Notes: a model not told the origin generated them from the letters alone. 64,000 nt of DNA from Candidatus Komeilibacteria bacterium RIFOXYD1_FULL_37_29 (GCA_001818495.1 MHKS01000005.1:250038-314037); one strand, 5' to 3'; shown: positions 1-31,956, counted from the first letter of the stretch. Translations and numbers: made by a program.

Positions 1-1
1 A

Positions 2-3000
2 GCAACTATCTTTGCTGATAAAGTTTTTGCTCAAGAAGAATTTGGCATCAATGATTTAGCTGATGCTGGGATAGCCTTGGGCACCAGGTCGATTCAAGAG
101 ACCATTGCCGGAATTGTCAATGTATTTTTGGGATTTTTGGGGATACTGGCCACCTTGCTTATTTTGTACGCGGGCTATCTTTGGATGACATCTGCCGGTA
201 ATGCTGAAAAAGTAGCCAAAGCCAAATTATTAATAGCCAGTGCTGTTATTGGCTTGGTGATTATATTGTCGGCTTATGCTATTTCTAGATTTATATTGAG
301 TAGATTATATGAAGAGGCTGGACCAACTGGTCCGGGTGGTGATCCAGGACCTGGTCCGGGTGGATTACCCACTTGTGATGAGCCATTCAATTTAGAAGAT
401 CCTTTGGTCTGCTCTTTAAGTAGAGGTAGTGGACCAGTCGGCAGTGGTTTGACTATCCGCGGTTGGCATTTTGATACTGATAGTGATGGTAATCCTGGCG
501 TTGGTCGAGTAGAAATTGGTGGCGTGGTGGCTGAAGTAGTGGAGTGCGCCGGTTCAGCTATGTGGGATGATAGGCGAGTCAAGGTAAAAATTCCCGATGT
601 TTTAGATCCAGGAAATTATGAAGTTATTTTATATAATGATTTTGTACCAGGTTTAGCCAGTGTAGAAAATCCACATTTTGATTTTACGGTTCTGCCTGGA
701 GTAGCCTCTGTCAATATAGATTGTCTGGTGCCAGATGAAGAAGCTGTTTCAAACCTACCAATTAATGTTCAGATTTTAGGTAATGGTTTTACCGATACTC
801 AAGATAATGTATCTATGACCGCTTGGGTAGCGGGAGCAGAAACGCCAATTGATTTAGCTATTAATTCTTGGTCAGATTTGGAAATCAATGTGGCTGTGCC
901 AGTTGATGCTTTATCTAGTGATATAGTGGTTAGTGTGGGAGCTAGCTTTGACCAAGAATTTTTTAATGTTACTTGCGCTAATGATCCGGAGTGTTCTTCT
1001 GGCTGTTGTAGTGATAATTCTTGCGTTGATTTAGCGATTTGCCAAGGAGCTGATATCCCTGGAGCCAATGCCCCGGTCATACAATCCATATCTCCAGAAG
1101 ATGGAGAAGAAGGAAGTCTCGTTACTATTTTTGGTTATAATTTTGGTAATGACCCGGGGGCAGTTACTTTTGAAGGAGCCCCAGGAGATTTGCCATCGGT
1201 TTTAAGTGGTGGCGTTTGTATTGATGTTTGGACCAATGAATATATTGTGATGGGAGTACCAGCCGGAGCCAACGGAGTTTTAAATGTCGTAATTACTCAA
1301 GCAGCCGGGGCCGGAGGAGAAAGTAGCGATCCTTATCCTGGTTTTGATCGAAATGATATTGTCCGACCAGGTCTTTGTAGTCTTAGCACCGACGAGGGAC
1401 AATACGGCGATGTTTTAGCTATCAGTGGTATAAATTTTGCGGCGACTGACGAAGTTTATTTTGATACAGTCGTTAGTTATGATACCAATATAATTTCAGC
1501 CAACAATGCGACCGCTGAAGTGCCAAATGTAGTTGGTAATCTGGGTGTTAGTTTGCAAACAGTAGCTGATGTGGCTAGTAATTTTTTACCTTTTTCAGCC
1601 TTAGCGATTGGTGGGGGCGGACCAATTATTAGCGAGTTGTCTCCAGACAACGGACCGGTAGATTCTTATGTGACTATTATGGGTTCTAATTTTGGAGATA
1701 ACGTAGGTTTAGTTTTATTTGATCTAGACAATGACCCAGGCAATGGTAATGAAGTACCGGGTAGTTTTGATTTTCCGGTAGTTTGTGGTGATTATTGGTT
1801 TGACAATTATATTATTGTCAAAGTGCCGGCTGGTCCTTGGGTAATTGGTAATGATTATCCAATCAGAGTGCAAAGAAATCCCGACGGTGCTTTGAGTAAT
1901 GATTTTGATTTTACTATTACTGATGTTGAGCCGGGACCACAGATTTGTTCAGTCAGCCCAGACAATGGTCCAATAGGAAATTTGGTAACTATTTCGGGAG
2001 AAAATTTTGGACCAAATTTAGGTAACGTTTTATTTTATAATTCCGTACCAGCCGGAGCTATTGCTAATTGGAGCTCTAATCAGGTTTTTGGAGTAGAGAT
2101 TCCAGTCGGAGCAGTCACTGGCCCTTTGATAGTTAGAGATTCAGCCGGCAATGATAGCAACGGAGTAGCTTTTAGTGTTGGCGCTTGTAGCAATGACTTG
2201 CAATGCGGTGCGGATGTTTGTTGTCCTGGGGAAAATGGTAATTATTGTGCCGCATCCTGCGATATAGTTTTAAATGCTTGTGAATATACCTGGGAAGTTA
2301 GTACCCAAGCGGATCCTTTTGAACTTCATTATAACTATAGTTGTGTTAGTGGTCTTCAATCTCCAACTCCTTGGCCTGATGAGCATGAAGGCGTTGGTGC
2401 CGATGGATTTTTGGCTCCCCAATCATCTCTTGATGCTTTTATTGATACCAATATTTCCGCTTTATTTACTCGCAATGTGGAAGATGTAGATTTTAATACA
2501 AATAATGTAGAGGTGTGGGAGTGTGATGACGGCGCAGTATTTAATCCGGCTACTTGTACGGTTGAAATTTTTGACAATGATGGAATTTTGGAAATTATCA
2601 ATCACAATAGTGACCGAGAAGGTTTTACTTTTAATCCAGCTAATAATTTATTAGCCAATCATTGGTATCAAGTTCGTTTGGGAACATTTAATGCCGAAGT
2701 GGGGGCTGATAGCTGGACACCTGATCCAGTAAATGATGCTTGGCATTTTAAAACTAGGGACAGTGATGTAATGTGCGAGGTTTCTACAGTGGCTGTTACC
2801 CCACAGAGCCCACAGGCCAACATGTATCCTAGTCGAGAAAAGACTTTTACTGCTTCGCCTTTGGCTGATAATTGTAATATCTGCGGTGGAGATTATGATT
2901 GGCAGTGGTCTTTGGGTCCTGACCCAGCGCCGATAGCAGATTATGCTACTATTGTTGGGCCATTTATTAACATGAGTGTTAATCAGGGTTACACTAGGAT

Positions 3001-6000
3001 AGAAGGTGGTCCAATGTCCACACAGTTAGTCACTGATCCAAATCATATTACTTTAATAGCTGAGAATTCTAATTATGGAATATCCGGTGAGTCTTATCCA
3101 ATTATCTTGGCGCCAATTTTAAGAGTAGAAGATAATGTGCCATCTTGTAGTGACTCTTGTACCAATGTAGCAGTCTGGGCAGATTTTAATACAGTGTTGA
3201 GTGGACCATTAAATATAAATGATTTTGCTATCTATCAATGTCTGGATGCTGATTGTAGTGGCTGGGACATTGGTACAAATTATACTAATAATTTAGACTC
3301 TTACGAAGTGCCGGGTGATGGAGTATATCGGGTGGATATTTTGCACGATCCTTTACCAGCCAATGAAAACTATATTGTTATTATTGATGAAACAGTCACC
3401 AATGTTCATGGTTATCCATTGGGATTGGATTATACTTGGGATTTTGGTGTTAGTGATACTAATTGTAGCATCACGGGCGCAGATATTTTGCCAGATAATT
3501 ATACAGCCAACTCTTTAAGCAATATTAATTATCGGGGCTATGCTTTGGCCAATGCTGGCTCTTGCGGTACCCAAGCTATCCAATGTGAAAATTGTCTTTG
3601 GAATTGGAGCAGTAGTAATCCAGCTATCGCTACTATTTTACCAGGCGGAGCAGGAGAACGGACAGTGCCGGCTACGCCAATAGCCAATGGCAATACTAAT
3701 ATAAATTTGGAAATTGATGGTACTCTCTTGGGACTTGGCTCAGCCAACAACAGCACACCTTTGACAGTAGATGTAGCTGGAGCAGATGTAGATTTTACCG
3801 AATTATCCGTTGATAATTATTTCCCCAATTGTGGCGCTTGTACCAATTCTATTGCCGAAGTTTGGTTTAATTCCAATTTGCAATTAGCTACGGTTAATAA
3901 TAATAGCGTCAGAATTTTTGATATTACCGACGGAGTTTATGATAATTCTGGTGTAACAGTTATTGCTAATAGGCATGTGATTTTAGATCATGGGCTATTT
4001 GATTTAGGACATGATTATCGAATTGAAGTAACCGACACAGTTTTAAATAGTAGTAACGATAATATTTTAGGCGGTTGGCAATCGCCAGTGATTACTATTG
4101 AAAATGATGGTTGTCTAGCTGATGCAGCCTGGGTTGATCCAGTGGTGGCTACCGCTGGCGCCAGTGATGCTATAGCTTATCGGGCTGTCACTACGTATGA
4201 TTCTCCAACTTGCGGACCAGCGCCGGTTGATTGTGACAGCTGTACCTTTGATTGGTTAAACAACGCTTTGGGTAGTTTCAATCAAACTGATGTTCAGTAT
4301 CCTATTTTTATGACCTTGGCTAATGTCAATGATGGTGATAGTGCTGTGATGACTTTAAATGTTTGGGAAGGCGCCAACGTTTTGCCAGTCACTGACGGAA
4401 CATTAAATATAGATCTTAGTATTGATGGTGGTAATTCTTTAAATATTATAGATAGTTGGCCGGATTGTGACGGTGCTTGTGATAATTCTCAGGTGGGAGT
4501 CAGGTTTAATACAGCTATAGACGAAACTACTTTGGGCGGTCAATATTCTATCACCGATGTTACCATTGGGGCAGTAGTAACTAGTGGCTATACACTTACC
4601 GGAGGGGACAGAACTTTGATTATAGAACATTTACCTTTGGTTTTGGGTCATGATTATGCGGTGCTGGTTAGTCAGGGCATCGCCAATGTTGATGGTAATT
4701 CTTTGCCAGGGCCGTTTAGTTTTGATTTTACAGTTGGTGAGGCAGAATGTCAGATTACCTCAGTCAATGTTGAGCCGGCTAGTACTACAGCTGTAGCTAG
4801 CCAGGGCATTACTTATAATGTAGAAACTTTGGCCAATACTGTGGCTTGCGGTAATTTGCCAGTTTATTGTGATAGTTGTACTTACAGTTGGTCTGATTTA
4901 CCTGACTTGGGAGCTTTTAATAATGCTACTTTACAAAATCCAATTTTTACCACGTCTCCAGCAGTGGTTAATGGTGATATCATCACTATTGAAGCTGATG
5001 TAGTAGACCAAGGAACTTTGTTTGAAGACAGTGGACAAATAAATATAGTGATTGGTCCAGCAATAAATCCAACGGTTAACTTAATAGGATTTTTCCCGCC
5101 AGATGAAATCTTAATGTGTATCAATGCCGTCCCATATTTCGAATTTGATATTAGTAATGGTGATTTGGATAGGCAGAGTTTGATAGACCAGGCGATTTTC
5201 TTAGAGATAGATGGCACACCAGTTAGTTTTTCAGTGAGATTTTTAGAGTTAAATCCAGGCATTTTATCAGCTATTTACGAGCCAGCTAATGTTTTGGATA
5301 GGGGTACCATTTATTTTTTCGGTTTTATTAACTTAGGACAAGTCAGAGCCGAAGGTGGTGGGCCAGTGGGTGTCAATTTACCAGAACCTTTAAATAATCA
5401 TCTAGGTAATCTCGGCAGATTTTTAATGACCTTAGATGAGGAGTGTCCTATTCAGCATGTAGAAATTTATCCGGCAGCAGATTCTTTTACTTGTATAGAT
5501 AACAATGGTTGTGATGATGATGAGGGGGCTATGATCGGTAACCAGCATTTATACCAGAGTGTAGTCTATGATATTCAAAATAATATACTAGGACAAGCTC
5601 TTTCTACTTATGCTTGGTCCTCTAGTGATAATAATATAGTTGACCCAGAAAGTTTGAATGATCCGGAAATTTTAGGCACAGCTGGGGAAAATGGTATTGC
5701 CCATTTGAATTTAGAAGTTTTCCTAAATACTGATCCAGCTGATGTTTTTAATACTAATAATACAGTGGAGGTAAATACCTGTCAGAATCCTTGGCCAAAT
5801 TTGGCTACTTATCCCTGGAATGACAATACTTTGCCGGATATGAATTTCTCCACTTATTATTGTGAAGAATATGGAATACCAGGCGAAACGATTTTGCCAC
5901 ATATGGATATTCCAAATATTATAAATTCTCCAGATCCCAATGTCATTAGAGAATACATTACTACGATTGAATATCCAATGGCTTTAAATGGGGCTAGTTC

Positions 6001-9000
6001 TTATCTTGGTTCTTTGGCTTATAATGAAAAATCAAACGATGATTCTTGGGCCAAAAAGTTAGTAGCTTTATTTAAACCAGTCAGGGCTAACAGCCAAGGT
6101 AATCCGACAGTTGATATTATCGCTTTTAGAGTCATGAATAATTCAGAGCATCTTTCTATAATCGATTGGTATACCAAAAATGCTCCCAATCCAGAAGGTG
6201 GACAAACTATAACTATCAACGGTTACGAAGCCATGCAAGTCGGCGCTTCAATCTATATAGCGGCCACCAATATTGAAGGTGGAACAATTTATACCAATGT
6301 CTATATAATTGCTCATAATATTGGAGCCAATGCTACGACTTTAGAAATTTATAATCAGTTAGTTGAAAATTTCAAATTAAATGTTAATATTGGTACTACT
6401 TTGGCTGGTACCTGTAATGGTCAGACATCTTTATCGTGTTCTAGTGATTTTGACTGCCCAAATTATTGTGATAATTTTGCTGATAATAATCAGGCCGATT
6501 GTCTAGCCAGTGGCTCAAATTGGCTACCTGATAGTTGTGATGCCTCACTTCTAAAATTGCGTCGGGATACCAAGCGTCTCAGTGATTTGGTTAATATCAA
6601 TGAAGCTGTTTTAGCTTACGGAGAAATGCATAAAGCTTGTGCTAACAACAGCTTGATTTCTTGTCAAAATTCTTCCAATTGTCCGAGCGGGGCAGCTTGT
6701 GTGCCATATTATCCACCTTTAAATTCTGGAACGTATCTAAATGGATCTTCCAATACTCGCTGGCCGTCCTGGCAAGAAACTTTGTCCGGCACTTTGGGCT
6801 ATTCTTTGCCAGAAGATCCAATCAATTTATTTAATGGTTGTAATGATCCTTATAATCCTGAGACTTGTTGGGATGAACAGGCTTTGGAATTTATCTGTCC
6901 AGCCAATTCTTTGGTCTATATGTATAACATCGGGGGCATTGGACAGTCTTACTATTTGGGGGCAAAATTTGAATTTGATATGCAAAATCCTGCCCCGCCA
7001 GTTACTTTTGTTAATAATTTAAATAATCCAGTCACTATGGATTTGGATATCAATACTCCATATTGTGATGCTATTGTGTTAAATCCTCCGGGAGCTTCAG
7101 CTAGCCCCTATTGTGGTAACGGTGTGATTGATAATGATTACTGTACTGAGCCTGTTTATAATAATCAGGCCGCTTGTCTAGCCGCTGGTGCAGATTGGAT
7201 TGTCAGTGAAGAGTGTGATAACGAATTTTGGAGATTTGCTTGTTCAGAGTCTCCGCCAACTGCTAATCCAGCTATACCAACAGTCGGCAACCATGAATGG
7301 TGGAGAGAGCAGACCATTGGTTGTAATCCTCCTGGAACTATCAATAGTACCGGAGAATTGATTGAATGTACTTGGTATAGACCAAGTCCGCCAATTATTG
7401 CCTCTCAATGTGGCGGTTATTGCGGTGATGGAACTCGCCAGCCTTATTATGAAAGATGTGATGGAGGCTTACCAGCTGAACCTTATCATTGTGCTGAGGC
7501 CGGAGTAAACCCATATTGTGCCGATTGTCAGGTGCTTTGTAACAATGGCACAAATATTTATCCAGCTGCTTTATGTGGTGATGGTATTTGGTCACAACCA
7601 ACAGAACAATGTGATCCAACAGCCAACCCAAACGGTAATGCTGGTTGGGATTGTACGGATGGCGGTAACATTGGTTGTAGTAATAGTTGTCAAAGAACTT
7701 GTACAGTAGGTACTCCTTATCCAGGACTTTGTGGTGATGGTTCTTTTAATCCATTAAATGAAGAATGTGATTATTCTAACTACAGTGCACCACTACCAAT
7801 AAATTCTAGCGCCATAGCTAGTTACAGCTGTACTTTATTTTGTGAGATGAATGGTGAATTTTGTGGTGATGGTGTAGCTCAGTATGAATATCAAGAACTA
7901 TGTGATTGGAATGGAGGATCTTATACCAGTCCCACACCATTATTTTCTGATGAATTTCATCAATATGGTTGTCGGGAAAATGGTTTTTATACAGCTTTAA
8001 ATGGAGCAGACTATGGTGCTTGTACAGCTACTTTGGACGGTTGGTGCGGTGACGGTAATATTCAGGACGGTGTAACATTCCCAGATTATGGAGAAGAGTG
8101 TGATCCGGGAGCACCTTGGGATGAAATAGATCAAAACCCTCCACCACCACTGCCGGAAAATAGTAGTATCAACAATCAGTATTCTTGTGATATTGATTGT
8201 GTGGGCAGAATCGGTGGCTATTGTGGCGATAATGCGGCCAATGAACCATTTGAAATTTGTGACGGCTCAGATTATCCAACCAGGCCAATACCATTTTTCT
8301 CTGGACCAAACAATACTTATGCCTGTGATGCTGATTGTAGTGGTGGGGCAGTAGGTGGTGGCTGGTGTGGCGATGGTACCAAAAATAGCAATTATTACGA
8401 AGCCTGTGATTGGGGTATTGAGGGTGCTCAAGATGCAGACAATTATCCATGGCCCCGGGGAGCTAGCTTGAGTAATTTCTCCAGTGAAATGAATCAGTAT
8501 GTTTGTAGCTCCTGTGTAAATTTTGGTGGCTATTGCGGTAACGGTGTAGTGGATGGTGCTTGCACAGTCAATTGTACTGATTGCGATCAAAATAATAATA
8601 ATTGTCAGAGCTCAGTTGGCTGCACTGCCTTTCAGTGTACCTCCAAGAGTGGCACTTTCTTCCCTTATGAGCAGTGCGATAGCGGTTATGACCCGGCCTA
8701 TTTGGTCAATAAAAATGTCGATATTGTTTACATATTTGATACTTCTGGATCTATGAGTGGAGCGGCTGCCCAATTATGTCAATCTACTGCTACAGTAGTT
8801 AACACCTTAAATACTGAGCATCCAGATATAAATTATCGTATTACTATTTTCCCAATGGGCGATGGCGACGGTACAGATGGAGTGGGTTATGAACTGACAG
8901 CTACGGAAACTGATAATATTCAATATTTTTTTGAGTTAGAAAACGGAGAAGGTACTACAGAACCATGGTACGATGAAGTTTTCGATGCCTTGTATTCCAA

Positions 9001-10813
9001 TTGTCCGCAACTGGTCAATCCGGTTACGGGAGCCACTGTTGATCCAAAAATTAGATATCGTAGCTTATACGATGACGCTACCAACGATATTGATGACCCA
9101 GTTGATATCTATGCCGGTGATACAGTTAATGAATTTTGTCCAGCATATGATGCTACAGAGAATTGGGGTTATGATGTCAAGAGAATAGCCGAGGATTATA
9201 ATTGGCTAGAGGGTTATCATAGAATTATTGTACCGGTCAGCAATGAACACGCTGTTTGTGGAGGACAAGGGGGTGCCAGCGCCAACGAAAATTTTGTTGA
9301 GGTTGATGGAATTTATGATATTTTAGCTGAAGCAGTTAGAGCGGCTAAAATTGATCCATCTAATCCAGTCTTTATAAACCCAGTTTTATGGGGAGCTTCG
9401 GGTATTACGACCATTGGTAGCGCCATTGCTGATGCTACTGGTGGACAATTTACTAGCAATACAGCTGGCTGGGAAGTCCAAACCCTTCAAGTAATCAACT
9501 CTACTATTTGTGATGGCGTCGGCGGTGGTGCTGACGGCAATGATCCAGACGGTCATATGGATTGTGTTTTAGACGACACCTGGGTTCCAGCTGAACCGCC
9601 ACCAGCTCCACCTTGTCGTGTCGAAGGACAATCTTGTAGTTTTATTCCTTGTTGTGCTGGACCGGGACTATTTTGTAATGCTTCTCAAGTTTGTGAAGCG
9701 CCAGCTATACCGCCACCAATGATTACTAGTCCACTGACTGCTAGTGGAGCACCTAGTCAGCCATTTACTTATACTATCACCGCCACCAACAATCCCACTT
9801 CATATGGCGCGGCCAATTTACCAGCTGGTTTATCAATCAATACCACTACTGGCGTGATATCGGGCAGTACGGCTGTTTTGGGAACACGCCTAGTCACTAT
9901 CACGGCTACCAATGCTACTGCAACAGACAGCGAAACCCTCAATCTGACTATTGCCGCAGTCCCTGTTATTACTAGCCCCCTAGCTGCCACCGGAACAGCT
10001 AATCAGCCGTTTACTTATACTATTACCGCTACCAATAATCCTACTAGCTTTAACGCTGAGCCATTCTTACCTCAAGGATTATCTATAAATTTAGCCACCG
10101 GAGTAATTTCTGGTGCTACAGCGACTGTGGGGGTACACAATATTACTATTAGTGCCAGCAATAATATCGGTAGTGATTCAGAAACTTTGGTTATTACTAT
10201 TTTGGCGCCTATACCAGTTATTACTTCTCCTTTGACGGCTACTGTGCCAGTTGGCCAGGCTTTTACCTATACTATTACCGCTAGTGGTAACCCTACCAGT
10301 TTTAATGCCGTTGGTTTACCAGCCGGGCTATCTGTAAATACTACTAGTGGTGTAATATCAGGTACGCCAACCATCGCCGGAACCTACAATGTTACTATTA
10401 GCGCTACCAACGGCAGTGGCACCGGTTCAGCTACTTTGGTTTTGACTGTGACGTTAAGCGCGCCAGTCATTACTAGCGCCAATACAGCCACAGCCACACT
10501 AACCAGGTTTTTCGGTTATTTGATTACTGCTACCAACAGTCCAAGCACCTTTAATGCCGTTGGTTTACCAGCCGGACTATCTATTGATACTAATACTGGT
10601 GTAATATCAGGTATTCCGACAGCTACTGGTGTTTACAGTGTCACTATTAGTGCCACTAATGCCGCTGGTACTGGTACTAGCGTATTAACTATTACGGTTA
10701 ATAATTGTAGTGGTGCTAATCAAGCTTGTAGCGCTACTCAACTTTGTTGTTCAGGAACATCTTGTAGTGGTGGTACTTGTTCAATTGTTTCTGATCGAGA
10801 AAGCTCGTTCTAA
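2..10813 (+). CDS. Giant (>3578 aa) secreted/anchored multidomain surface protein. N-terminal T4SS-pilin-like (TrbC/VirB2, PF18895-type) double-TM anchor, Pro/Gly linker, IPT/TIG-like repeats, Cys-rich CGDG repeats, vWA domain, C-terminal tandem Ig-like (He_PIG-type) repeats. Truncated at the 5' edge of the window.
   Basis: The reading frame is open from nt 2 to the stop at 10813. The ORF-track start at 77 is a TTG. The segment 'VFAQEE...' at nt 20-40 looks like the end of a signal peptide, so the true start is upstream of the window. The N-terminus (LGTRSIQETIAGIVNVFLGFLGILATLLILYAGYLWMTSAGNAEKVAKAKLLIASAVIGLVIILSAYAI) matches the CPR pilin-like two-helix pattern. Repeated G..V.I.G.NFG motifs (TIG-like). 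A vWA MIDAS motif DIVYIFDTSGSMSG sits near nt 8715. Many CGDG...EECD Cys repeats at nt 7400-8700. Five or six roughly 95-aa repeats ITSPLTA.G..QPFTYTITATNNPTSFNA..LP.GLS at nt 9715-10690. Confidence 0.85.
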   Translation, partial: ATIFADKVFAQEEFGINDLADAGIALGTRSIQETIAGIVNVFLGFLGILATLLILYAGYLWMTSAGNAEKVAKAKLLIASAVIGLVIILSAYAISRFILSRLYEEAGPTGPGGDPGPGPGGLPTCDEPFNLEDPLVCSLSRGSGPVGSGLTIRGWHFDTDSDGNPGVGRVEIGGVVAEVVECAGSAMWDDRRVKVKIPDVLDPGNYEVILYNDFVPGLASVENPHFDFTVLPGVASVNIDCLVPDEEAVSNLPINVQILGNGFTDTQDNVSMTAWVAGAETPIDLAINSWSDLEINVAVPVDALSSDIVVSVGASFDQEFFNVTCANDPECSSGCCSDNSCVDLAICQGADIPGANAPVIQSISPEDGEEGSLVTIFGYNFGNDPGAVTFEGAPGDLPSVLSGGVCIDVWTNEYIVMGVPAGANGVLNVVITQAAGAGGESSDPYPGFDRNDIVRPGLCSLSTDEGQYGDVLAISGINFAATDEVYFDTVVSYDTNIISANNATAEVPNVVGNLGVSLQTVADVASNFLPFSALAIGGGGPIISELSPDNGPVDSYVTIMGSNFGDNVGLVLFDLDNDPGNGNEVPGSFDFPVVCGDYWFDNYIIVKVPAGPWVIGNDYPIRVQRNPDGALSNDFDFTITDVEPGPQICSVSPDNGPIGNLVTISGENFGPNLGNVLFYNSVPAGAIANWSSNQVFGVEIPVGAVTGPLIVRDSAGNDSNGVAFSVGACSNDLQCGADVCCPGENGNYCAASCDIVLNACEYTWEVSTQADPFELHYNYSCVSGLQSPTPWPDEHEGVGADGFLAPQSSLDAFIDTNISALFTRNVEDVDFNTNNVEVWECDDGAVFNPATCTVEIFDNDGILEIINHNSDREGFTFNPANNLLANHWYQVRLGTFNAEVGADSWTPDPVNDAWHFKTRDSDVMCEVSTVAVTPQSPQANMYPSREKTFTASPLADNCNICGGDYDWQWSLGPDPAPIADYATIVGPFINMSVNQGYTRIEGGPMSTQLVTDPNHITLIAENSNYGISGESYPIILAPILRVEDNVPSCSDSCTNVAVWADFNTVLSGPLNINDFAIYQCLDADCSGWDIGTNYTNNLDSYEVPGDGVYRVDILHDPLPANENYIVIIDETVTNVHGYPLGLDYTWDFGVSDTNCSITGADILPDNYTANSLSNINYRGYALANAGSCGTQAIQCENCLWNWSSSNPAIATILPGGAGERTVPATPIANGNTNINLEIDGTLLGLGSANNSTPLTVDVAGADVDFTELSVDNYFPNCGACTNSIAEVWFNSNLQLATVNNNSVRIFDITDGVYDNSGVTVIANRHVILDHGLFDLGHDYRIEVTDTVLNSSNDNILGGWQSPVITIENDGCLADAAWVDPVVATAGASDAIAYRAVTTYDSPTCGPAPVDCDSCTFDWLNNALGSFNQTDVQYPIFMTLANVNDGDSAVMTLNVWEGANVLPVTDGTLNIDLSIDGGNSLNIIDSWPDCDGACDNSQVGVRFNTAIDETTLGGQYSITDVTIGAVVTSGYTLTGGDRTLIIEHLPLVLGHDYAVLVSQGIANVDGNSLPGPFSFDFTVGEAECQITSVNVEPASTTAVASQGITYNVETLANTVACGNLPVYCDSCTYSWSDLPDLGAFNNATLQNPIFTTSPAVVNGDIITIEADVVDQGTLFEDSGQINIVIGPAINPTVNLIGFFPPDEILMCINAVPYFEFDISNGDLDRQSLIDQAIFLEIDGTPVSFSVRFLELNPGILSAIYEPANVLDRGTIYFFGFINLGQVRAEGGGPVGVNLPEPLNNHLGNLGRFLMTLDEECPIQHVEIYPAADSFTCIDNNGCDDDEGAMIGNQHLYQSVVYDIQNNILGQALSTYAWSSSDNNIVDPESLNDPEILGTAGENGIAHLNLEVFLNTDPADVFNTNNTVEVNTCQNPWPNLATYPWNDNTLPDMNFSTYYCEEYGIPGETILPHMDIPNIINSPDPNVIREYITTIEYPMALNGASSYLGSLAYNEKSNDDSWAKKLVALFKPVRANSQGNPTVDIIAFRVMNNSEHLSIIDWYTKNAPNPEGGQTITINGYEAMQVGASIYIAATNIEGGTIYTNVYIIAHNIGANATTLEIYNQLVENFKLNVNIGTTLAGTCNGQTSLSCSSDFDCPNYCDNFADNNQADCLASGSNWLPDSCDASLLKLRRDTKRLSDLVNINEAVLAYGEMHKACANNSLISCQNSSNCPSGAACVPYYPPLNSGTYLNGSSNTRWPSWQETLSGTLGYSLPEDPINLFNGCNDPYNPETCWDEQALEFICPANSLVYMYNIGGIGQSYYLGAKFEFDMQNPAPPVTFVNNLNNPVTMDLDINTPYCDAIVLNPPGASASPYCGNGVIDNDYCTEPVYNNQAACLAAGADWIVSEECDNEFWRFACSESPPTANPAIPTVGNHEWWREQTIGCNPPGTINSTGELIECTWYRPSPPIIASQCGGYCGDGTRQPYYERCDGGLPAEPYHCAEAGVNPYCADCQVLCNNGTNIYPAALCGDGIWSQPTEQCDPTANPNGNAGWDCTDGGNIGCSNSCQRTCTVGTPYPGLCGDGSFNPLNEECDYSNYSAPLPINSSAIASYSCTLFCEMNGEFCGDGVAQYEYQELCDWNGGSYTSPTPLFSDEFHQYGCRENGFYTALNGADYGACTATLDGWCGDGNIQDGVTFPDYGEECDPGAPWDEIDQNPPPPLPENSSINNQYSCDIDCVGRIGGYCGDNAANEPFEICDGSDYPTRPIPFFSGPNNTYACDADCSGGAVGGGWCGDGTKNSNYYEACDWGIEGAQDADNYPWPRGASLSNFSSEMNQYVCSSCVNFGGYCGNGVVDGACTVNCTDCDQNNNNCQSSVGCTAFQCTSKSGTFFPYEQCDSGYDPAYLVNKNVDIVYIFDTSGSMSGAAAQLCQSTATVVNTLNTEHPDINYRITIFPMGDGDGTDGVGYELTATETDNIQYFFELENGEGTTEPWYDEVFDALYSNCPQLVNPVTGATVDPKIRYRSLYDDATNDIDDPVDIYAGDTVNEFCPAYDATENWGYDVKRIAEDYNWLEGYHRIIVPVSNEHAVCGGQGGASANENFVEVDGIYDILAEAVRAAKIDPSNPVFINPVLWGASGITTIGSAIADATGGQFTSNTAGWEVQTLQVINSTICDGVGGGADGNDPDGHMDCVLDDTWVPAEPPPAPPCRVEGQSCSFIPCCAGPGLFCNASQVCEAPAIPPPMITSPLTASGAPSQPFTYTITATNNPTSYGAANLPAGLSINTTTGVISGSTAVLGTRLVTITATNATATDSETLNLTIAAVPVITSPLAATGTANQPFTYTITATNNPTSFNAEPFLPQGLSINLATGVISGATATVGVHNITISASNNIGSDSETLVITILAPIPVITSPLTATVPVGQAFTYTITASGNPTSFNAVGLPAGLSVNTTSGVISGTPTIAGTYNVTISATNGSGTGSATLVLTVTLSAPVITSANTATATLTRFFGYLITATNSPSTFNAVGLPAGLSIDTNTGVISGIPTATGVYSVTISATNAAGTGTSVLTITVNNCSGANQACSATQLCCSGTSCSGGTCSIVSDRESSF

Positions 10814-10834: not shown

Positions 10835-11731
10835 ATGTTTGATGACTTAAAACAAGACAGTCCAATAAAATCAACTGCTCCCAATGGAGCGTCCAATACG
10901 AACAACTCGACAGTTCGTCAACCCCAAAGAGCGACTGGTATTGATGATATGTTTGATGATGTGGATCCGGTAGCTAGTGCAAGTAGCGGTGGACCAGTTG
11001 ATCCCAACAAACCTAGTGCTGTAAAGTCGGGTAAGATTAAGGTAGTTTCTCAAACCAACTTACCTACCAGCGCCCAGGCGGCTTCTCAGGTGGCTAGCTA
11101 TCCAGTTATACCACAGCCAGTTCGACCATCTAGCATGCCCACTATGTCACTAGATGATTCTATGGTTGTGACCGACGGAAGATCCAATGGCGTTATGAGA
11201 AAAATAATTATTACTTTTTTAGTCATTGTTCTTTTGGCCTTGGTCGGCGGGGGAGTTTATTATTTCTTTTTAAGAACTAATGGTTTGGACAATAACGCTC
11301 AGCCAAACGATAATGCCAATAATAATGTGGCTAATGAAAATAATAATCAAGTGGATGTATTTAATGAATCCGACCAAGAGCCGACAATCAATGAAGATGA
11401 ATTGGATGATGATTTTGATGGACTGAGCAATGGTTTAGAAAAGACCTATGGCACCAATCCTTTGGAAGTAGATAGTGATAATGACGGAGTTTTTGATCAA
11501 GATGAGGTCGAAACCCACAAGACTGATCCCTTAGCTGATGATAGTGATAGCGACGGACTTAGTGATTATCAGGAAATTATTATTTATAAGTCCGATCCCA
11601 ATGATCCCGATACAGATGGAGACACATTTTTAGACGGTGTGGAGGTGCTAAATGGTTATAATCCACTAGGTGCTGGTAAATTGGAAGAGGCTACTTCTAC
11701 TAGTAATTTAAATACTAACAATACTTTATAA
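10835..11731 (+). CDS. Single-pass membrane protein with an Asn-rich linker and thrombospondin type-3-like Ca-binding repeats
   Basis: TM helix IIITFLVIVLLALVGGGVYYFFL. Repeats DSDNDGVFDQDE, DDSDSDGLSDYQE and DPDTDGDTFLDG, all of D-x-D-x-DG-x-x-D-x-x-E type. Confidence 0.7.
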   Translation: MFDDLKQDSPIKSTAPNGASNTNNSTVRQPQRATGIDDMFDDVDPVASASSGGPVDPNKPSAVKSGKIKVVSQTNLPTSAQAASQVASYPVIPQPVRPSSMPTMSLDDSMVVTDGRSNGVMRKIIITFLVIVLLALVGGGVYYFFLRTNGLDNNAQPNDNANNNVANENNNQVDVFNESDQEPTINEDELDDDFDGLSNGLEKTYGTNPLEVDSDNDGVFDQDEVETHKTDPLADDSDSDGLSDYQEIIIYKSDPNDPDTDGDTFLDGVEVLNGYNPLGAGKLEEATSTSNLNTNNTL

Positions 11732-11735: not shown

Positions 11736-12854
11736 ATGTTTAATGATCAGAATGTAAATAATCATTCGAGTGGCTTTGGTCGGGGCGATAATAACGGTTT
11801 TGGTAAAAAAAATAGCGCAGCTTTGGGCAATATTTTAGGTGTACAGAAAGAGGTGGTTAATGTCCATGCTATGCCATCCAAGTTTGTCACCACCACTCAG
11901 CGAACCGGCCATTTAACTACTGCTAGTGGAGCCAAAGGATCGGGGCGCAAATTATTATTAATTACTATTTCCTTGATTTTAGTAATCATTGTAGTAATTG
12001 GGGGAATTATGTATTTTGTTAATGGTGGAAAAGAAAAACTCAATTTTAGCCAACTATTTGGTCAAAATTTAGATTCTAATAATGTAGCCAATGAAAGTGT
12101 CAATCAGAATATAAATGACAACACAAACGACAACACCAATGAAGTAGTCAATGACAATACCAATCAGAATATAAACGACAACACCAACGACAACACCAAT
12201 GAAGTAGTCAATGACAATACCAATCAGAATATAAATGACAACACAAACGACAACACCAACGAAACTCCAAATTATCAGCCCGCTGTTGATACAGATGGAG
12301 ACGGTTTAACTACTGAAGAAGAATTGGTCTTTGGCACCAATCCGGATTTGGAGGACACCGATAAAGATGGTTATAAAGATGGACAAGAAATAACTAGTCT
12401 TTATAATCCTTTAGTACCAGCCCAAGATTTATTTTCTTCGGGCCTAGTTAAAAAATTTATTTCCTCCAATTATGGTTATACATTTTTTAGACCCAACACT
12501 TGGACAGCCAAGGTGGTCGGTACAGTTAGTAATATTATTATTTTGCCGGATTCTGAATCTGGTGAATCATTTAATATTGAAATAACGACTAATCCAGAAA
12601 ATAAAACACTTAGCCAGTTATTAGATGAAACGGGTAGTGTTTTTGTTGACGCTGAAAATTATAGTCTAGCTGGAGCACCGGCCTATCGTTCATTAGATGG
12701 CCGTAAAGTATCGGCTATCAGTAACGGTTTTTTATTCGTTATTTCTCACAATGTTAGTGGTTTAGGTGAAGTTAGTTTTGATAATATTTTTGAGATGATG
12801 TTAAAAAGTTTTACCTGGACGGAAATAGAGAGCCCCGATGTCAATGAATTATAA
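11736..12854 (+). CDS. Single-pass membrane protein with a tandem Asn/Asp/Thr repeat, TSP3-like repeats and a C-terminal globular domain
   Basis: TM helix LLLITISLILVIIVVIGGIMYFV. Three 20-aa peptide repeats NDNTNEVVNDNTNQNINDNT. TSP3-like motifs DTDGDGLTTEEE and DTDKDGYKDGQE. Same architecture as the upstream gene, which suggests paralogs. Confidence 0.7.
   Translation: MFNDQNVNNHSSGFGRGDNNGFGKKNSAALGNILGVQKEVVNVHAMPSKFVTTTQRTGHLTTASGAKGSGRKLLLITISLILVIIVVIGGIMYFVNGGKEKLNFSQLFGQNLDSNNVANESVNQNINDNTNDNTNEVVNDNTNQNINDNTNDNTNEVVNDNTNQNINDNTNDNTNETPNYQPAVDTDGDGLTTEEELVFGTNPDLEDTDKDGYKDGQEITSLYNPLVPAQDLFSSGLVKKFISSNYGYTFFRPNTWTAKVVGTVSNIIILPDSESGESFNIEITTNPENKTLSQLLDETGSVFVDAENYSLAGAPAYRSLDGRKVSAISNGFLFVISHNVSGLGEVSFDNIFEMMLKSFTWTEIESPDVNEL
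12110..12265. repeat. Intragenic 60-bp tandem repeat of about 2.6 copies (caatcagaatataaaYgacaacacMaacgacaacaccaatgaagtagtcaatgacaatac)
   Basis: A near-identical 60-bp unit is repeated in frame inside CDS 11736..12854. Confidence 0.8.
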
Positions 12855-16704: not shown

Positions 16705-16764
16705 GCTACGGTCGAGGGAAAATAGTTATCCACTTGTGGGCTATTTTTTTTCATGTTAAGATCA

Positions 16765-16955
16765 TATTACTTTGACAATTCAATCAGGGAAGTGAGGTGT
16801 GAATCCTCTACAGTCCTAGCTACGGTAAGCTCCATGCAAGTATTATGGGGACAAGTCCGATACCTGAGATATTTGCTTTCTCCTAAGGAGAGAAGAGCTA
16901 AATTTATTAACCAATAACTTTAACTCTGCTTTTCTTAGGGCAGAGATTTTTTGTA
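16765..16955 (+). ncRNA. Cobalamin (B12) riboswitch aptamer with a downstream intrinsic terminator as expression platform
   Basis: Core GGGAAGTGAGGTGTGAATCCTCTACAGTCC...GCTACGGTAAG at 16787-16830 matches the conserved cobalamin-riboswitch core GGGAA..GGTG.GAATCC..C.G.C...GC.AC.GTAAG (compare E. coli btuB GGGAATCCAGTGCGAATCTGGAGCTGACGCGCAGCGGTAAGG). A B12-box-like AAGTCCGATACCTG lies at 16852-16866. A terminator hairpin CTCTGC-ttttcttagg-GCAGAG plus a T-run lies at 16925-16953. Confidence 0.75.
16925..16955 (+). terminator. Intrinsic terminator (riboswitch expression platform)
   Basis: Stem CTCTGC/GCAGAG with a 10-nt loop, followed by ATTTTTTG. Confidence 0.7.
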
Positions 16956-18839: not shown

Positions 18840-19406
18840 ATGCTAAAAATTTTCTCAGTTCTATTAGTCGTGTTGTTTGGACTACCTCTCACAGTCCAAG
18901 CCGTTGGTTTGTCTGTTTCGCCGTCTTCTCTGGATATTTTTTATCCGGATGTTTTAACACAAAAAATAAAAATACAAAATATTTCTAGTGAGCCTATAAA
19001 AATCTATGTGCGGGCTGATGATTTTTCAAAAGAGATTAGCTTAGAACCGTCGGAGTTTAATTTGTTACCCCAAGAGATTGCTCTGGTAAATATTTCAGCT
19101 GATTTTAAGCATTTATCAGCCGGTGTTAGAAAAACCAATATTTCTGTTTTGTCCCAAGCTCTAGATAAAAAGAGTTTCAATGCTATCTCTGGTATCAAGG
19201 TGCCAGTCAGTATTTATGTTACGGAAAGTTATTTCAAGTGGTCAGGACCAGCTGTCTTTGTCGTAGTGTTTTTGGGCTTGGGAGTTATTTTTATGCTTTG
19301 GTATTTATTGGTTTATATTTTCCGGCTTAAACCCAAGAAAAATAAATTAGCGGGTTTTAACTTTTTGTTACATCATAAGCGGAAAAAGTGGTATAAATGG
19401 TGGTAA
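18840..19406 (+). CDS. Hypothetical bitopic protein (signal peptide, beta-rich domain, C-terminal TM anchor with a basic tail). Probably co-transcribed with the B12-binding protein.
   Basis: Start is 3 nt after the upstream stop. N-terminal signal MLKIFSVLLVVLFGLPLTVQA. C-terminal TM VVVFLGLGVIFMLWYLLVYIF followed by RLKPKKNK. Confidence 0.5.
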   Translation: MLKIFSVLLVVLFGLPLTVQAVGLSVSPSSLDIFYPDVLTQKIKIQNISSEPIKIYVRADDFSKEISLEPSEFNLLPQEIALVNISADFKHLSAGVRKTNISVLSQALDKKSFNAISGIKVPVSIYVTESYFKWSGPAVFVVVFLGLGVIFMLWYLLVYIFRLKPKKNKLAGFNFLLHHKRKKWYKWW

Positions 19407-19596: not shown

Positions 19597-19686
19597 GGAG
19601 AGGTGCTAGAGTGGTTGAATAGGGTGCTCTCGAAAAGCACTAGTCCTGAAAGGGACTCGGGGGTTCAAATCCCTCCCTCTCCGCCA
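19597..19686 (+). tRNA. tRNA-Ser (anticodon CGA), type II with a long variable arm, 3' CCA encoded
   Basis: GGAGAGGTG...acceptor, with the pairing CCTCTCC-G-CCA at the 3' end. D-loop AGAGTGGTTGAA. Anticodon loop CTCGAAA. Long extra arm. T-arm GGTTCAAATCC. Confidence 0.85.
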
Positions 19687-20035
19687 TCCTTCGCTAAAGC
19701 TACGGAATGACTAGCCATATGTTATATTATACTTACATTTTATTAAGCTCAAAATCTCATATTTTTTATTTTGGTTCAACGAATAATTTAAAAAATAGAT
19801 TGGAGCTGCATAATAGCGGCAAGGTAACATCAACTAAATCGCATATACCTTGGAAATTAGTTTGGTATTGTGTATTTGAAACGGAAAAACAGGCAAGAGA
19901 TTTTGAGCTTTATTTAAAAACAGGGTCAGGAAAATCTTTTGCTTATAAAAGACTTATTTCCGTGGCTTTAGAGAAGGATTTCAGGGAAGGGAGAATAGGT
20001 AGTCCGAAGCGGAAGCCTTAGCTTTTGCGAAGGAT
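19687..20035. mobile_element. 349-bp GIY-YIG mini-element inserted at the 3' end of tRNA-Ser. It is bounded by 16-bp imperfect terminal inverted repeats (TCCTTCGCTAAAGCTA / TAGCTTTTGCGAAGGA) and flanked by a 16-bp direct repeat of the tRNA 3' end (CCCTCCCTCTCCGCCA at 19671-19686; ACCTCCCTCTCCGCCA at 20036-20051).
   Basis: Repeats are read directly. TIR match is 15/16 and DR match 15/16. The only gene inside is the GIY-YIG ORF. Confidence 0.6.
19707..20021 (+). CDS. GIY-YIG nuclease-domain protein (YhbQ/Slx1-like, UPF0213 family)
   Basis: YYTYILLSSKSHIFYFGSTNNLKNRLELHN...TK...PWKLVWYCVFETEKQARDFELYLK matches the GIY-YIG core (GIY / YIG / R / E / N). Confidence 0.8.
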   Translation: MTSHMLYYTYILLSSKSHIFYFGSTNNLKNRLELHNSGKVTSTKSHIPWKLVWYCVFETEKQARDFELYLKTGSGKSFAYKRLISVALEKDFREGRIGSPKRKP

Positions 20036-24262: not shown

Positions 24263-24265
24263 ATT

Positions 24266-31955: not shown

Positions 31956-31956
31956 A

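What the first reader, a model, noticed from the sequence alone, without database searches (positions are those of the whole stretch)
1..10813. Giant (>3.5k aa) adhesin-like protein anchored by a T4SS-pilin-like N-terminal module and cut off by the window edge
The N-terminus matches the TrbC/VirB2-like pilin fold (PF18895-type) that is largely restricted to CPR bacteria. Here it is fused to about 3500 aa of extracellular modules: TIG-like repeats, Myxococcus-like CGDG Cys repeats, a vWA domain with an intact MIDAS motif (DTSGSMSG), and five or six He_PIG/Ig-like repeats bracketed by knottin-like Cys clusters. This architecture suggests a pilus-tip or cell-surface host-attachment protein of an episymbiont. 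The frame is open to nt 2, so the true N-terminus (signal peptide) lies outside the window.
Basis: partly seen in the sequence, partly recalled or inferred. Interest (0 to 1): 0.55.

Follow-up and report, generated by a model that had tools for sequence, protein, structure and literature searches.

The report
Giant pilin-headed surface protein of Patescibacteria
This is a real, intact gene for a roughly 3,600-residue surface protein of an ultrasmall (CPR/Patescibacteria) bacterium; a conjugation-pilin-like hairpin at its start holds a very long chain of adhesion-type modules, and it belongs to a widespread conserved gene cassette that I found described in no paper of the library I searched.

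Summary
Frame 2 is open from nt 2 to the stop at 10811-10813, giving 3,603 codons. A complete 50%-identical ortholog in a Ca. Komeilibacteria genome shows that only about 14 signal-peptide residues are missing.

- **Confirmed by Pfam:** the VirB2-like T4SS_pilin head, TIG repeats, Big_5 domains and four He_PIG repeats (not five or six).
- **Pattern only:** the CGDG cysteine repeats and the knottin-like clusters.
- **Not confirmed:** the 'vWA' domain matches no VWA model. It belongs to an unannotated family of about 190 residues with a conserved DxSGSM motif, and its profile weakly hits solved vWA/I-domains.

The protein is not a one-off. In 42 of 79 related genome loci a pilin-headed giant (1,550 to more than 3,500 aa) is present. 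It nearly always sits directly behind a 520-1,036-aa pilin-headed paralog, in a housekeeping neighbourhood with no T4SS genes in the flanks examined.

The pilin heads are far more conserved than the rest of the protein (52% against about 25% identity). They are more alike within a genome than between genomes.

My best reading is a hairpin-anchored fibrillar adhesin. Incorporation into a T4SS-type pilus as a modular pilin remains possible.

The parts
2..31 (+). C-terminal remnant of the Sec signal peptide (ATIFADKVFA, cleavage before QEEFG). About 14 residues and the start codon lie upstream of the window.
   Evidence: Alignment with the complete ortholog L002 and with the N-termini of P0001-P0014.
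32..313 (+). Mature N-terminus plus the VirB2/TrbC-like T4SS_pilin helical hairpin: helix aa 31-63, basic loop TSAGNAEKVAKAK, helix aa 68-106.
   Evidence: PF18895 at 42.3 bits against a cut-off of 26.6, PF04956 at E=0.002, NF045849 at 39 bits against a cut-off of 40. These are the only two hydrophobic segments in the protein. AlphaFold with 34 sequences gives pLDDT 81-89 over the hairpin. Mean identity among giants is 52%.
314..382 (+). Gly/Pro-rich flexible linker (EEAGPTGPGGDPGPGPGGLPT).
   Evidence: Read directly from the sequence. pLDDT is below 50 in the model.
383..2149 (+). Array of five to six TIG/IPT Ig-like domains (starts near aa 134, 236, 358, 456, 539, 644), interrupted by six-Cys cluster 1 (aa 325-347).
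   Evidence: Pfam TIG at 92.3 bits in 5 stretches, TIG_SUH at 24.2 bits. Motif scan.
2186..2260 (+). Six-Cys cluster 2 (C-C-CC-C-C).
   Evidence: Regex scan.
2261..3601 (+). Conserved Ig-like/Big_5 stalk region (aa about 755-1200), shared by 31-35 of the 42 related giants.
   Evidence: Big_5 at 34.4 bits, best stretch aa 859-896. BLASTP coverage map.
3602..5548 (+). Variable stalk of repeated units of about 200 aa (Big_5-like plus Cys-containing Ig-like domains), aa about 1200-1850.
   Evidence: Big_5 at aa 1493-1577. Internal repeats at 1180-1400 and 1403-1608. Few of the 42 giants match this stretch: 3-6 of them over aa 1251-1800.
5549..7006 (+). Conserved central module of unknown fold (aa about 1850-2335), made of a domain of about 95 aa, a Cys-rich loop and a helix-plus-globular part. 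It is present in nearly all giants and stands alone in P0035.
   Evidence: BLASTP and alignment. No Pfam or PDB profile hit.
7094..8683 (+). Cysteine-rich region with about ten CG[DN]G...C[DE] repeats (DUF4215-like in pattern only).
   Evidence: Regex scan. No Pfam hit in the window. DUF4215 hits in relatives.
8684..9601 (+). Divergent vWA-like domain with DTSGSMS, a lineage-specific insertion of about 90 aa, and SNE in place of the family's SDE.
   Evidence: Exhaustive HMMER search found 61 relatives. Family alignment A4. The profile hits integrin I-domains, SpaC and vWF at E=0.006-0.5. No Pfam VWA hit.
9614..9694 (+). Six-Cys cluster 3.
   Evidence: Regex scan. Weak knottin-type hits only.
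9716..10699 (+). Four He_PIG Ig-like repeats.
   Evidence: Pfam He_PIG at 153 bits in 4 stretches. phmmer self-scan gives the boundaries.
10706..10813 (+). Six-Cys cluster 4, a short C-terminal tail and the stop codon. No LPXTG or other known sorting signal.
10835..11731 (+). Single-pass membrane protein with extracellular TSP3 calcium-binding repeats, 21 nt downstream of the giant gene. Probable partner, conserved at this position in several lineages.
   Evidence: Pfam TSP3_bac at 53 bits. Sequence. Synteny in L002, L003, L004, L008, L009, L021, L056, L069 and L072. No terminator between the genes.
11736..12854 (+). Second single-pass membrane protein with a TSP3 repeat and a C-terminal domain. 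Conserved after the first one.

Best explanation
The gene encodes a giant, very acidic, disulfide-rich fibrillar surface protein. The extracellular part is about 370 kDa with pI about 4. The organism is a Komeilibacteria-related Patescibacteria bacterium.

Proposed mechanism:
1. A Sec signal peptide is removed.
2. The VirB2-like two-helix hairpin inserts in the cytoplasmic membrane with its basic loop inside and both ends outside.
3. A Gly/Pro linker follows. The rest of the chain then projects from the cell as a stalk of TIG, Big_5 and other Ig-like modules.
4. The stalk carries a family-conserved central module. At the far end it carries lineage-variable binding modules: cysteine repeats, a divergent vWA-like domain and He_PIG repeats.

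The protein is made together with a shorter paralog that has the same hairpin. In this lineage two membrane proteins with calcium-binding TSP3 repeats are also encoded alongside. The likely function is attachment to a host cell or other surface.

Shown: the architecture, the single anchor, the cassette and its conservation. Inferred: the topology, the fibril shape, and adhesion as the function.
For: - The ORF is intact and domain calls exceed curated thresholds.
- The only two hydrophobic segments are the pilin hairpin. The AlphaFold model is a hairpin with pLDDT 81-89. The loop is Lys-rich, which fits the positive-inside rule.
- No enzymatic domain was found here or in three other giants. They carry only Ig-like, beta-propeller and cysteine-repeat modules.
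- The part near the anchor and the central module are conserved. The distal end varies: vWA-like only in the closest relatives, He_PIG only in some. This is the pattern expected of an adhesin with a distal binding end.
- The architecture meets the published fibrillar-adhesin criteria except for a known anchor (PMC8286594).
- 42 of 79 genome loci carry such a giant. 36 of these have a medium paralog directly upstream, at a median gap of about 5 bp.
- Synteny pepA-pth-der-lytR-lepB-hisS-yqeY-medium-giant is shared by four relatives (L002, L160, L161 and the P0010 contig), which marks a vertically inherited core locus rather than a mobile T4SS.
Against: - No experiment or structure supports adhesion, and no ligand can be named.
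- The hairpin is much more conserved than a generic membrane anchor needs to be: 52% identity against about 25% for the rest of the protein.
- The hairpin is more similar between the two adjacent genes of one genome (61%) than between genomes (50-52%). It also scores like genuine small array pilins. These points suggest a specific assembly interaction that a plain anchor model does not explain.
- The core of the protein is conserved across distant lineages, which is unusual for fast-evolving adhesins.
- The supposed adhesive vWA domain is not confirmed.
Confidence: 0.5

Rival explanations
1. Modular T4SS pilin. The VirB2-like head is extracted from the membrane by the Patescibacteria T4SS. It is then built into a pilus made of small VirB2-like pilins, at the tip or as a rare subunit. 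The pilus thereby displays a giant adhesin, possibly as a heteromer of the medium and giant heads. This would parallel modular type IV pilins such as S. sanguinis PilB.
For: - The head has strong, pilin-like conservation and carries the signature motif Y[AG]G[YFW]x[WY]xT. That motif is also found in 120 of 316 small array pilins.
- The best small pilin of each array scores 107 bits against the giant/medium head model. Giants themselves score 113 bits.
- Similarity between the medium and giant heads is higher within a genome than between genomes.
- Four genomes carry both the cassette and an 11-gene small-pilin array.
- A Gly-rich linker follows the head.
- The literature reports essential VirB2-like pilin arrays in Patescibacteria and no PrgB-type adhesin (PMC12102498; PMC10633639).
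- vWA modules sit on pilus-tip adhesins and on a modular type IV pilin (PMC8179133).
Against: - No VirB4, VirB6 or other T4SS gene lies within 53 kb downstream in the window or within 10 kb upstream in orthologs. The locus is a housekeeping one.
- No T4SS pilus has been demonstrated in any Patescibacteria bacterium.
- A 370-kDa passenger on a 70-residue subunit is sterically possible only at a tip or at very low occupancy.
- The higher within-genome similarity could equally be gene conversion between adjacent paralogs.
- The loci were chosen by similarity to this head, which biases.
Confidence: 0.27
2. Structural envelope component. The medium and giant proteins, perhaps with the calcium-binding TSP3 proteins, form a membrane-tethered coat or S-layer-like scaffold of the ultrasmall cell, rather than a target-specific adhesin.
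For: - The locus sits in the core genome next to lytR, lepB, ftsA and ftsZ.
- The cassette occurs across many lineages, and the stalk core and central module are conserved.
- The composition is extremely acidic, with neighbouring calcium-binding repeat proteins.
Against: - A single chain of about 3,600 residues with a variable distal end is not typical of lattice-forming S-layer proteins.
- The TSP3 partners are missing from half of the testable loci.
- No SLH or other lattice domains were found.
- Size and distal modules vary strongly between genomes, from 1,550 to more than 3,500 aa.
Confidence: 0.18
3. Artefact: a mis-assembled, chimeric or decaying gene that is not expressed as one protein.
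For: The protein database holds only a 613-aa fragment identical to part of it, with a divergent last few residues (P0034).
Against: - The frame of 10.8 kb is open.
- A collinear 3,515-aa ortholog at about 50% identity covers aa 1-3213 in an independent genome.
- Dozens of further full-length relatives exist.
Confidence: 0.02

Closest known systems
VirB2/TrbC-like T4SS pilins of Patescibacteria (Pfam PF18895; small pilin arrays described in PMC12102498 and PMC10633639)
   Same: The same hairpin domain, above the Pfam threshold. The same signal peptide, helix, basic loop, helix layout. The same signature motif as many small array pilins. The same phylum.
   Different: - Described pilins are small. 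The ones in the arrays I fetched are 120-250 aa.
- They are highly divergent within arrays, about 25% identity according to the paper.
- They often lie near virB4.
- Here the head carries a passenger of about 3,500 aa, is 52% conserved between genomes, and lies in a housekeeping locus with no T4SS genes nearby.
Fibrillar adhesins of bacteria (criteria of Monzon et al. 2021, PMC8286594)
   Same: Extracellular. A long stalk of repeated Ig-like domains (TIG, Big_5, He_PIG). Candidate binding modules at the end far from the anchor. A single chain spanning the whole fibril.
   Different: - The anchor is an N-terminal VirB2-like hairpin, which is not in that paper's list of known anchors (LPXTG, SLH, beta-barrels and others).
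- No recognised adhesive Pfam domain is present.
Modular type IV pilins, e.g. Streptococcus sanguinis PilB (pilin module plus vWA module; PMC8179133)
   Same: The concept of a pilin module with a functional module grafted to its C-terminus. A vWA-type metal-site motif in the grafted part.
   Different: - The pilin superfamily is unrelated: a type IV pilin with a class III signal peptide, against a VirB2-type hairpin.
- No N_methyl motif is present here.
- The passenger is ten times larger.
- Filament incorporation is not shown here.
Surface adhesins of Gram-positive conjugative T4SSs (PrgB type)
   Same: A large surface protein in a monoderm organism that could provide the cell-cell contact a T4SS needs.
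   Different: - No sequence relationship.
- PrgB is LPXTG-anchored and encoded in the T4SS operon.
- The Patescibacteria T4SS survey found no PrgB homologue (PMC12102498).
vWA-containing pilus-tip adhesins of sortase pili (SpaC, GBS104)
   Same: These are among the best PDB matches of the vWA-like family profile. The match covers the strand beta1 plus DxSGSM region.
   Different: - The matches are marginal (E about 0.007-0.3) and cover only about 25-30 residues.
- The rest of the domain is not detectably similar.

Membership tests
PF18895 T4SS_pilin / VirB2-like pilin | Profile HMM score above the curated gathering threshold. | tested here: met
   35.9 bits on the whole protein and 42.3 bits on the segment, against 26.6. 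TrbC PF04956 at E=0.002.
PF18895 T4SS_pilin / VirB2-like pilin | Cleavable signal peptide followed by two hydrophobic helices joined by a short basic loop. | tested here: met
   AxA|Q site by ortholog alignment. Hydropathy. AlphaFold helices 31-63 and 68-106.
PF18895 T4SS_pilin / VirB2-like pilin | Three-dimensional similarity to solved conjugative pilins. | tested here: inconclusive
   Foldseek against the PDB gave no match with E<=0.001. The A. pernix conjugation pilin 8dfu ranked 19 at E=6.3. A two-helix hairpin is too simple to discriminate.
PF18895 T4SS_pilin / VirB2-like pilin | Small stand-alone subunit. | tested here: not met
   3,603 or more residues.
PF18895 T4SS_pilin / VirB2-like pilin | Encoded with T4SS genes or in a pilin array. 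| tested here: not met
   No T4SS family among the Pfam-scanned genes to about 41 kb. ORF order suggests the rest of the window is the EF-G/EF-Tu and ribosomal-protein region, which was not scanned. None in the 10 kb upstream of orthologs. The only pilin-type neighbour is the medium paralog.
PF18895 T4SS_pilin / VirB2-like pilin | Polymerises into an extracellular pilus. | not testable with these tools
   Needs microscopy, proteomics or multimer modelling.
von Willebrand factor type A (vWA) domain | Match to a VWA profile (PF00092, PF13519 and related). | tested here: not met
   No hit at E<=1 or E<=10 in the window or the ortholog. None in 10 relatives at E<=0.001.
von Willebrand factor type A (vWA) domain | MIDAS DxSxS motif after a hydrophobic beta1 strand. 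| tested here: met
   VDIVYIFDTSGSMSG. D, S and S are invariant in 17 family members.
von Willebrand factor type A (vWA) domain | Remaining MIDAS ligands (Thr, and Asp after beta4). | tested here: inconclusive
   The family consensus is RxxvPiSDE. The window has PVSNE, with Asn for Asp. No Thr can be assigned without a structure.
von Willebrand factor type A (vWA) domain | Alpha/beta Rossmann-like fold. | tested here: inconclusive
   The single-sequence AlphaFold model has pLDDT 40.6. The family profile's best PDB hits are nearly all vWA/I-domains but at E=0.006-0.5 and mostly over beta1-alpha1-beta2. hhalign probability against CMG2 is 37%.
Fibrillar adhesin-like proteins (PMC8286594) | Stalk of repeated stalk-type domains. 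| tested here: met
   TIG in 5 stretches, several Big_5, four He_PIG.
Fibrillar adhesin-like proteins (PMC8286594) | Recognised adhesive domain at the end far from the anchor. | tested here: inconclusive
   Only a divergent vWA-like domain and cysteine-rich modules are present there.
Fibrillar adhesin-like proteins (PMC8286594) | Known surface anchor (LPXTG, SLH, LysM, beta-barrel and others). | tested here: not met
   The C-terminus ends ...CSIVSDRESSF. No such Pfam domain was found. The only hydrophobic segments are the N-terminal hairpin.
DUF4215 / Myxococcus cysteine-rich repeat (PF13948) | Profile HMM match. | tested here: not met
   No hit at E<=10 for aa 2370-2863. Relatives do hit: L006 at 35.3 bits against a cut-off of 27, L014 at 21 bits, P0035 at 19 bits.
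He_PIG (PF05345) | Profile HMM match, with number of copies. | tested here: met
   153 bits and four copies.
Modular type IV pilins (PilB/PilC type) | Class III signal peptide / N-terminal methylation motif of type IV pilins. | tested here: not met
   No N_methyl hit, and the head is VirB2-type. This is an analogy, not membership.

The most novel reading that the evidence does not exclude
Patescibacteria possess 'modular VirB2-type pilins'. In this reading a conserved operon supplies a medium and a giant protein whose co-evolving pilin heads form a tip or minor-subunit complex of the T4SS pilus. This would give the monoderm-type T4SS of these episymbionts its missing adhesin. It would be the first case of a conjugative-type pilin used as a carrier for large functional modules.
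Probability: 0.22. Interest if true: 0.8.

Novelty: new variant of a known kind. Interest (0 to 1): 0.55.

Why it matters
Patescibacteria may make up a large share of bacterial diversity, and the cultivated ones live attached to host cells.

- Their T4SS and its VirB2-like pilins are essential in the one species tested (PMC10633639). It is not known what these systems touch or how contact is made.
- The main genomic survey reported no T4SS adhesin (PMC12102498).
- This work finds a conserved, vertically inherited cassette that joins the same pilin hairpin to some of the largest proteins of these tiny genomes. About 11 kb is roughly 1% of a 1-Mb genome.
- The cassette is a concrete candidate for the contact apparatus. 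It would also add a new kind of surface anchor to the fibrillar-adhesin repertoire, where nearly half of the proteins surveyed had no known anchor (PMC8286594).
- The analysis also exposes two unannotated domain families: the central module and the DxSGSM vWA-like domain of about 190 aa.

Tried and rejected
1. A whole-protein homology search timed out.
2. The window's own contig could not be extended. Neither the genome scan nor the metagenome scan returned a 100% match; the best was 62-63%.
3. For the vWA-like region:
   - Pfam at E<=10 gave nothing.
   - PDB phmmer and the two-sequence profile gave nothing relevant.
   - The word-indexed search of 5.8 billion proteins gave nothing.
   - The single-sequence AlphaFold model was unusable at pLDDT 40.6, so no fold search was run on it.
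   - Pfam on ten weaker relatives gave no VWA.
4. For the central module:
   - Only two database hits turned up, one of them a self-fragment.
   - There was no PDB hit by sequence or by a 13-sequence profile.
   - I suspected a type IV pilin or pseudopilin head from the motif KLRRDTKRLSDL...YP...LPxDPxN...YxY...YxL. I treat this as unsupported.
5. A Foldseek search of the hairpin model against the PDB was uninformative.
6. No DNA-level tandem repeats occur in the gene, so recent repeat expansion or length variation is rejected.
7. I looked for T4SS genes beside a small-pilin array (L017) to obtain a VirB4 probe. None was found in that locus. Genome-wide co-occurrence with VirB4 therefore could not be tested.
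8. The Pam donor-strand pilus of CPR bacteria (bioRxiv 10.64898/2026.03.03.709456) is a different system and not related.

Full report
**1. The observation**

Frame 2 of the plus strand is open from nt 2 to a stop at 10811-10813, which gives 3,603 codons. GC content is 39-45%, like the rest of the window. No DNA tandem repeats occur in the gene. A frame this long cannot arise by chance.

The translation begins ATIFADKVFAQEEFGINDLADAG. Homologs found with the first 333 residues all start with a Lys-rich N-terminus, a hydrophobic stretch and an AxA|Q cleavage site.

The complete ortholog in a Ca. Komeilibacteria genome is L002:9959-20506, 3,515 aa. It begins MKKVFSLLISNLILAITFANKAFA|QEEFGVNDLADAG. 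The window therefore lacks only about 14 residues of a Sec signal peptide. Neither public collection held the window's own contig, so it could not be extended directly.

**2. Domain anatomy**

Pfam places T4SS_pilin (PF18895) at aa 28-98. It scores 35.9 bits in the whole protein and 42.3 bits on the isolated segment, against a cut-off of 26.6. TrbC/VirB2 (PF04956) scores E=0.002. The NCBIfam Mycoplasma-ICE pilin-like model scores 39 bits against a cut-off of 40.

Hydropathy finds only two membrane-type segments in the whole protein, aa 31-64 and 70-102. An AlphaFold model built on 34 sequences shows two long helices, 31-63 and 68-106, with pLDDT 81-89. A Foldseek search of that model against the PDB gave nothing significant. 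This is expected for a bare helical hairpin and adds no information.

The modules after a Gly/Pro linker, in order:

| Residues | Module | Evidence |
|---|---|---|
| about 128-716 | Five to six TIG domains | 92 bits |
| about 755-1850 | Stalk with several Big_5 matches | |
| about 1850-2335 | Module with no database match | |
| 2371-2860 | About ten CG[DN]G cysteine repeats | |
| about 2895-3200 | Region carrying DTSGSMSG | |
| 3239-3566 | Four He_PIG repeats | 153 bits |

Four six-cysteine C-C-CC-C-C clusters sit between modules. The extracellular part is about 370 kDa, with pI about 4.05, 133 cysteines and only 0.7% lysine. There is no C-terminal sorting signal.

**3. Claims that needed correction**

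- He_PIG has four copies, not five or six.
- The cysteine repeats give no Pfam hit even at E<=10. Related giants and P0035 do hit DUF4215, so the resemblance is plausible but is not a membership for this sequence.
- The vWA claim failed every direct test:
  - no VWA profile hit in the window or the ortholog;
  - no PDB sequence hit;
  - nothing in the word-indexed protein search;
  - an unusable single-sequence model.

The exhaustive HMMER search found 61 relatives of this region. Seven of them score below 1e-30. Six of those seven are proteins of 2,800-3,400 aa, and the domain sits at or near the C-terminal end in each. About 45 weaker hits are compact domains of about 190 aa. Their consensus is vDvVFvmDTSGSM.DE..ALC...EdWGpA...R.ivPiSDEGP...V.VSPi...La.dLA..TGG. 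None of ten of these that I scanned has a Pfam VWA hit.

A profile of 17 members, searched against all PDB sequences, returns a list headed almost entirely by vWA/I-domains. These include integrin alpha-L at E=0.006, the pilus-tip adhesin SpaC, collagen VI, vWF A3 and GBS104. The matches are marginal and lie mostly over beta1, the MIDAS motif, alpha1 and beta2. I conclude that this is a divergent vWA-like family that Pfam does not capture.

In the window the family's SDE after the putative beta4 is SNE. The domain also carries an insertion of about 90 residues. 'Intact MIDAS' is therefore not established.

**4. It is a member of a large family in a conserved cassette**

The genome scan with aa 1-333 returned 79 loci from species-representative genomes. 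I re-analysed them with tblastn and ORF extension.

- 42 loci carry a pilin-headed ORF of 1,550 to more than 3,500 aa. Many are cut by the 10-kb flank.
- In 36 of these, a pilin-headed ORF of 520-1,036 aa lies directly upstream. The median gap is about 5 bp, and the genes often overlap by 4 bp.
- 33 loci are arrays of small pilins, 11 genes in the four I listed, as described in the literature (PMC12102498).
- Four genomes have both a cassette and an array.

The medium proteins are T4SS_pilin plus Big_5. Sources name them only 'Ig-like domain-containing protein', 'pilin' or 'hypothetical protein'.

The neighbourhood pepA-pth-der-lytR-lepB-hisS-(S21)-yqeY-medium-giant recurs in four relatives: L002, L160, L161 and the P0010 contig.

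In the window the giant is followed after 21 nt, with no terminator, by two single-pass membrane proteins with TSP3 calcium-binding repeats. Then come ybeY, dgkA, ftsA and ftsZ. The TSP3 genes hold this position in at least nine other loci but are absent from the Magasanikbacteria-type loci.

No T4SS gene appears among the Pfam-scanned genes to about 41 kb of the window, nor in the 10 kb upstream of the four relatives with the conserved neighbourhood. ORF order suggests the remainder of the window is the EF-G/EF-Tu and ribosomal-protein region, which I did not scan.

**5. What is conserved**

BLASTP of the window protein against the 42 giants gives this picture:

- Shared by nearly all: the pilin head, aa 350-1200 and aa 1850-2350.
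- Rarely shared: aa 1200-1800 and everything beyond about aa 2600.
- The vWA-like domain appears only in the closest ortholog among these loci.

He_PIG appears in some other giants. Other giants add Big_7 and a BNR/sortilin-type propeller. No enzyme domain was seen. The central module also occurs directly behind a signal peptide in a 764-aa protein, so it is an autonomous unit.

The pilin core of 79 residues averages 52% identity between giants of different genomes, while the rest of the proteins align at about 25%. The medium and giant heads of the same genome are 61% identical. Heads from different genomes are 50% identical.

An HMM of these heads scores giants at a median of 113 bits. The best small pilin of each array scores a median of 107 bits. 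The signature Y[AG]G[YFW]x[WY]xT is present in 40 of 42 giants, 42 of 45 medium proteins and 120 of 316 small pilins. The giant's head is thus the same kind of module as the stand-alone pilins, and it is under strong constraint. One caveat applies: all loci were selected by similarity to this head.

**6. Mechanism**

*Shown:* a signal peptide, a VirB2-type hairpin as the only hydrophobic element, a flexible linker, and about 3,500 residues of extracellular-type modules with a conserved proximal and central part and a variable distal part.

*Inferred from the known topology of VirB2-family propilins (established knowledge):* after signal-peptide cleavage both ends of the hairpin face outward and the Lys-rich loop faces the cytoplasm. 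The passenger would then be outside the cell.

The most economical reading is a membrane-tethered fibrillar adhesin. Its distal modules would determine what it binds. It would be produced with a shorter paralog and, in this lineage, with calcium-binding membrane partners (confidence about 0.5).

The strong conservation of the head, and its greater within-genome similarity, are not explained by a passive anchor. They keep alive the alternative that the heads are recognised by the T4SS and enter a pilus as a tip or minor complex (about 0.27). Gene conversion between neighbouring paralogs could mimic the within-genome similarity.

A structural coat role is a third possibility, given the core-genome position and the extreme acidity (about 0.18). 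Artefact is essentially excluded by the collinear ortholog.

**7. Comparison with what is known**

The library search found only one study that uses PF18895, the Patescibacteria T4SS survey. That study treats VirB2 homologues as small proteins and states that no PrgB-like adhesin was detected. It does not mention fusions.

The T4SS review and the Saccharibacteria genetics paper describe essential small-pilin arrays only. The fibrillar-adhesin surveys do not list this anchor. They note that nearly half of such proteins have no known anchor.

The nearest functional analogy is the modular type IV pilin PilB of S. sanguinis, which is a pilin plus a vWA module. That belongs to an unrelated pilin superfamily. 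The recently reported Pam pilus of CPR bacteria is a different, donor-strand system.

I therefore file the protein as carrying a PF18895 domain, since that membership test is met. It is not a conventional pilin: the size and gene-context features are not met, and polymerisation is untestable here. It is fibrillar-adhesin-like with a new anchor type.

**8. Verdict**

It is a new variant of known kinds: a VirB2-like pilin domain joined to a fibrillar surface protein. Such proteins are already present in sequence databases under uninformative names, and no paper I could find describes them.

Interest is moderate to good at 0.55. The cassette is a concrete, testable candidate for the contact apparatus of a large uncultivated radiation. 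The key question, anchor or pilus subunit, cannot be settled computationally with the tools at hand. The lineages carrying the cassette among my hits do not include the cultivated Saccharibacteria models.

Noticed in passing
window 16745-16885 (+), with genes at 17038-18837 and 18840-19406: A cobalamin riboswitch (34.4 bits against a gathering score of 31.5). It precedes a 599-aa protein with a prenyltransferase/squalene-cyclase-like alpha-alpha toroid and DUF4430, and then a 188-aa protein with no Pfam hit. This may be a B12-binding or uptake pair in an organism unlikely to make cobalamin.
   Followed up: partly
window 19597-33114: A tRNA-Ser(cga) is followed by a low-GC (27-34%) island. The island carries a GIY-YIG nuclease, an N6/N4 DNA methylase, a ResIII helicase, a Shedu SduA_C protein, methyltransferases, a carbamoyltransferase, a thymidylate-synthase-like protein and a dCMP deaminase on the minus strand. 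It looks like an integrated defence or nucleotide-modification island.
   Followed up: partly
window 36486-37799 and 37792-38586: ComEC appears split into two overlapping ORFs, one with the Competence domain and one with the metallo-beta-lactamase domain.
   Followed up: no
window 10835-11731 and 11736-12854; also L003:17330-19110, L004:12168-13805, L009:7273-8826: Two single-pass membrane proteins with low-complexity cytoplasmic N-termini and extracellular TSP3 calcium-binding repeats. They are conserved directly downstream of the giant gene in several lineages but not in Magasanikbacteria-type loci.
   Followed up: partly
proteins P0042-P0096 (relatives of window aa 2895-3215): An apparently unannotated domain family of about 190 aa. 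Invariant DxSxS, E.W, W and P.S positions and a near-invariant TGG mark it. It occurs singly in small secreted proteins, in tandem, and at the ends of giants. No Pfam model matches the ten members scanned.
   Followed up: partly
P0035 (764 aa); window aa 2034-2335 (nt 6101-7006): The conserved central module of the giants also occurs directly after a signal peptide in a much shorter cysteine-rich protein. It is therefore a mobile, self-contained module of unknown fold.
   Followed up: partly
L017:5200-6318, 7751-8464, 8474-9232: In a small-pilin array some members carry the T4SS_pilin module at the C-terminus, behind an N-terminal extension of 160-300 aa. Extensions therefore occur on either side of the hairpin.
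   Followed up: no
P0034 (613 aa), matching window aa about 2076-2688: The protein database holds a fragment that BLASTP reports as 100% identical to the giant. It starts at an internal Met, and the last residues visibly differ. This suggests a fragmented or slightly different assembly of the same organism.
   Followed up: no
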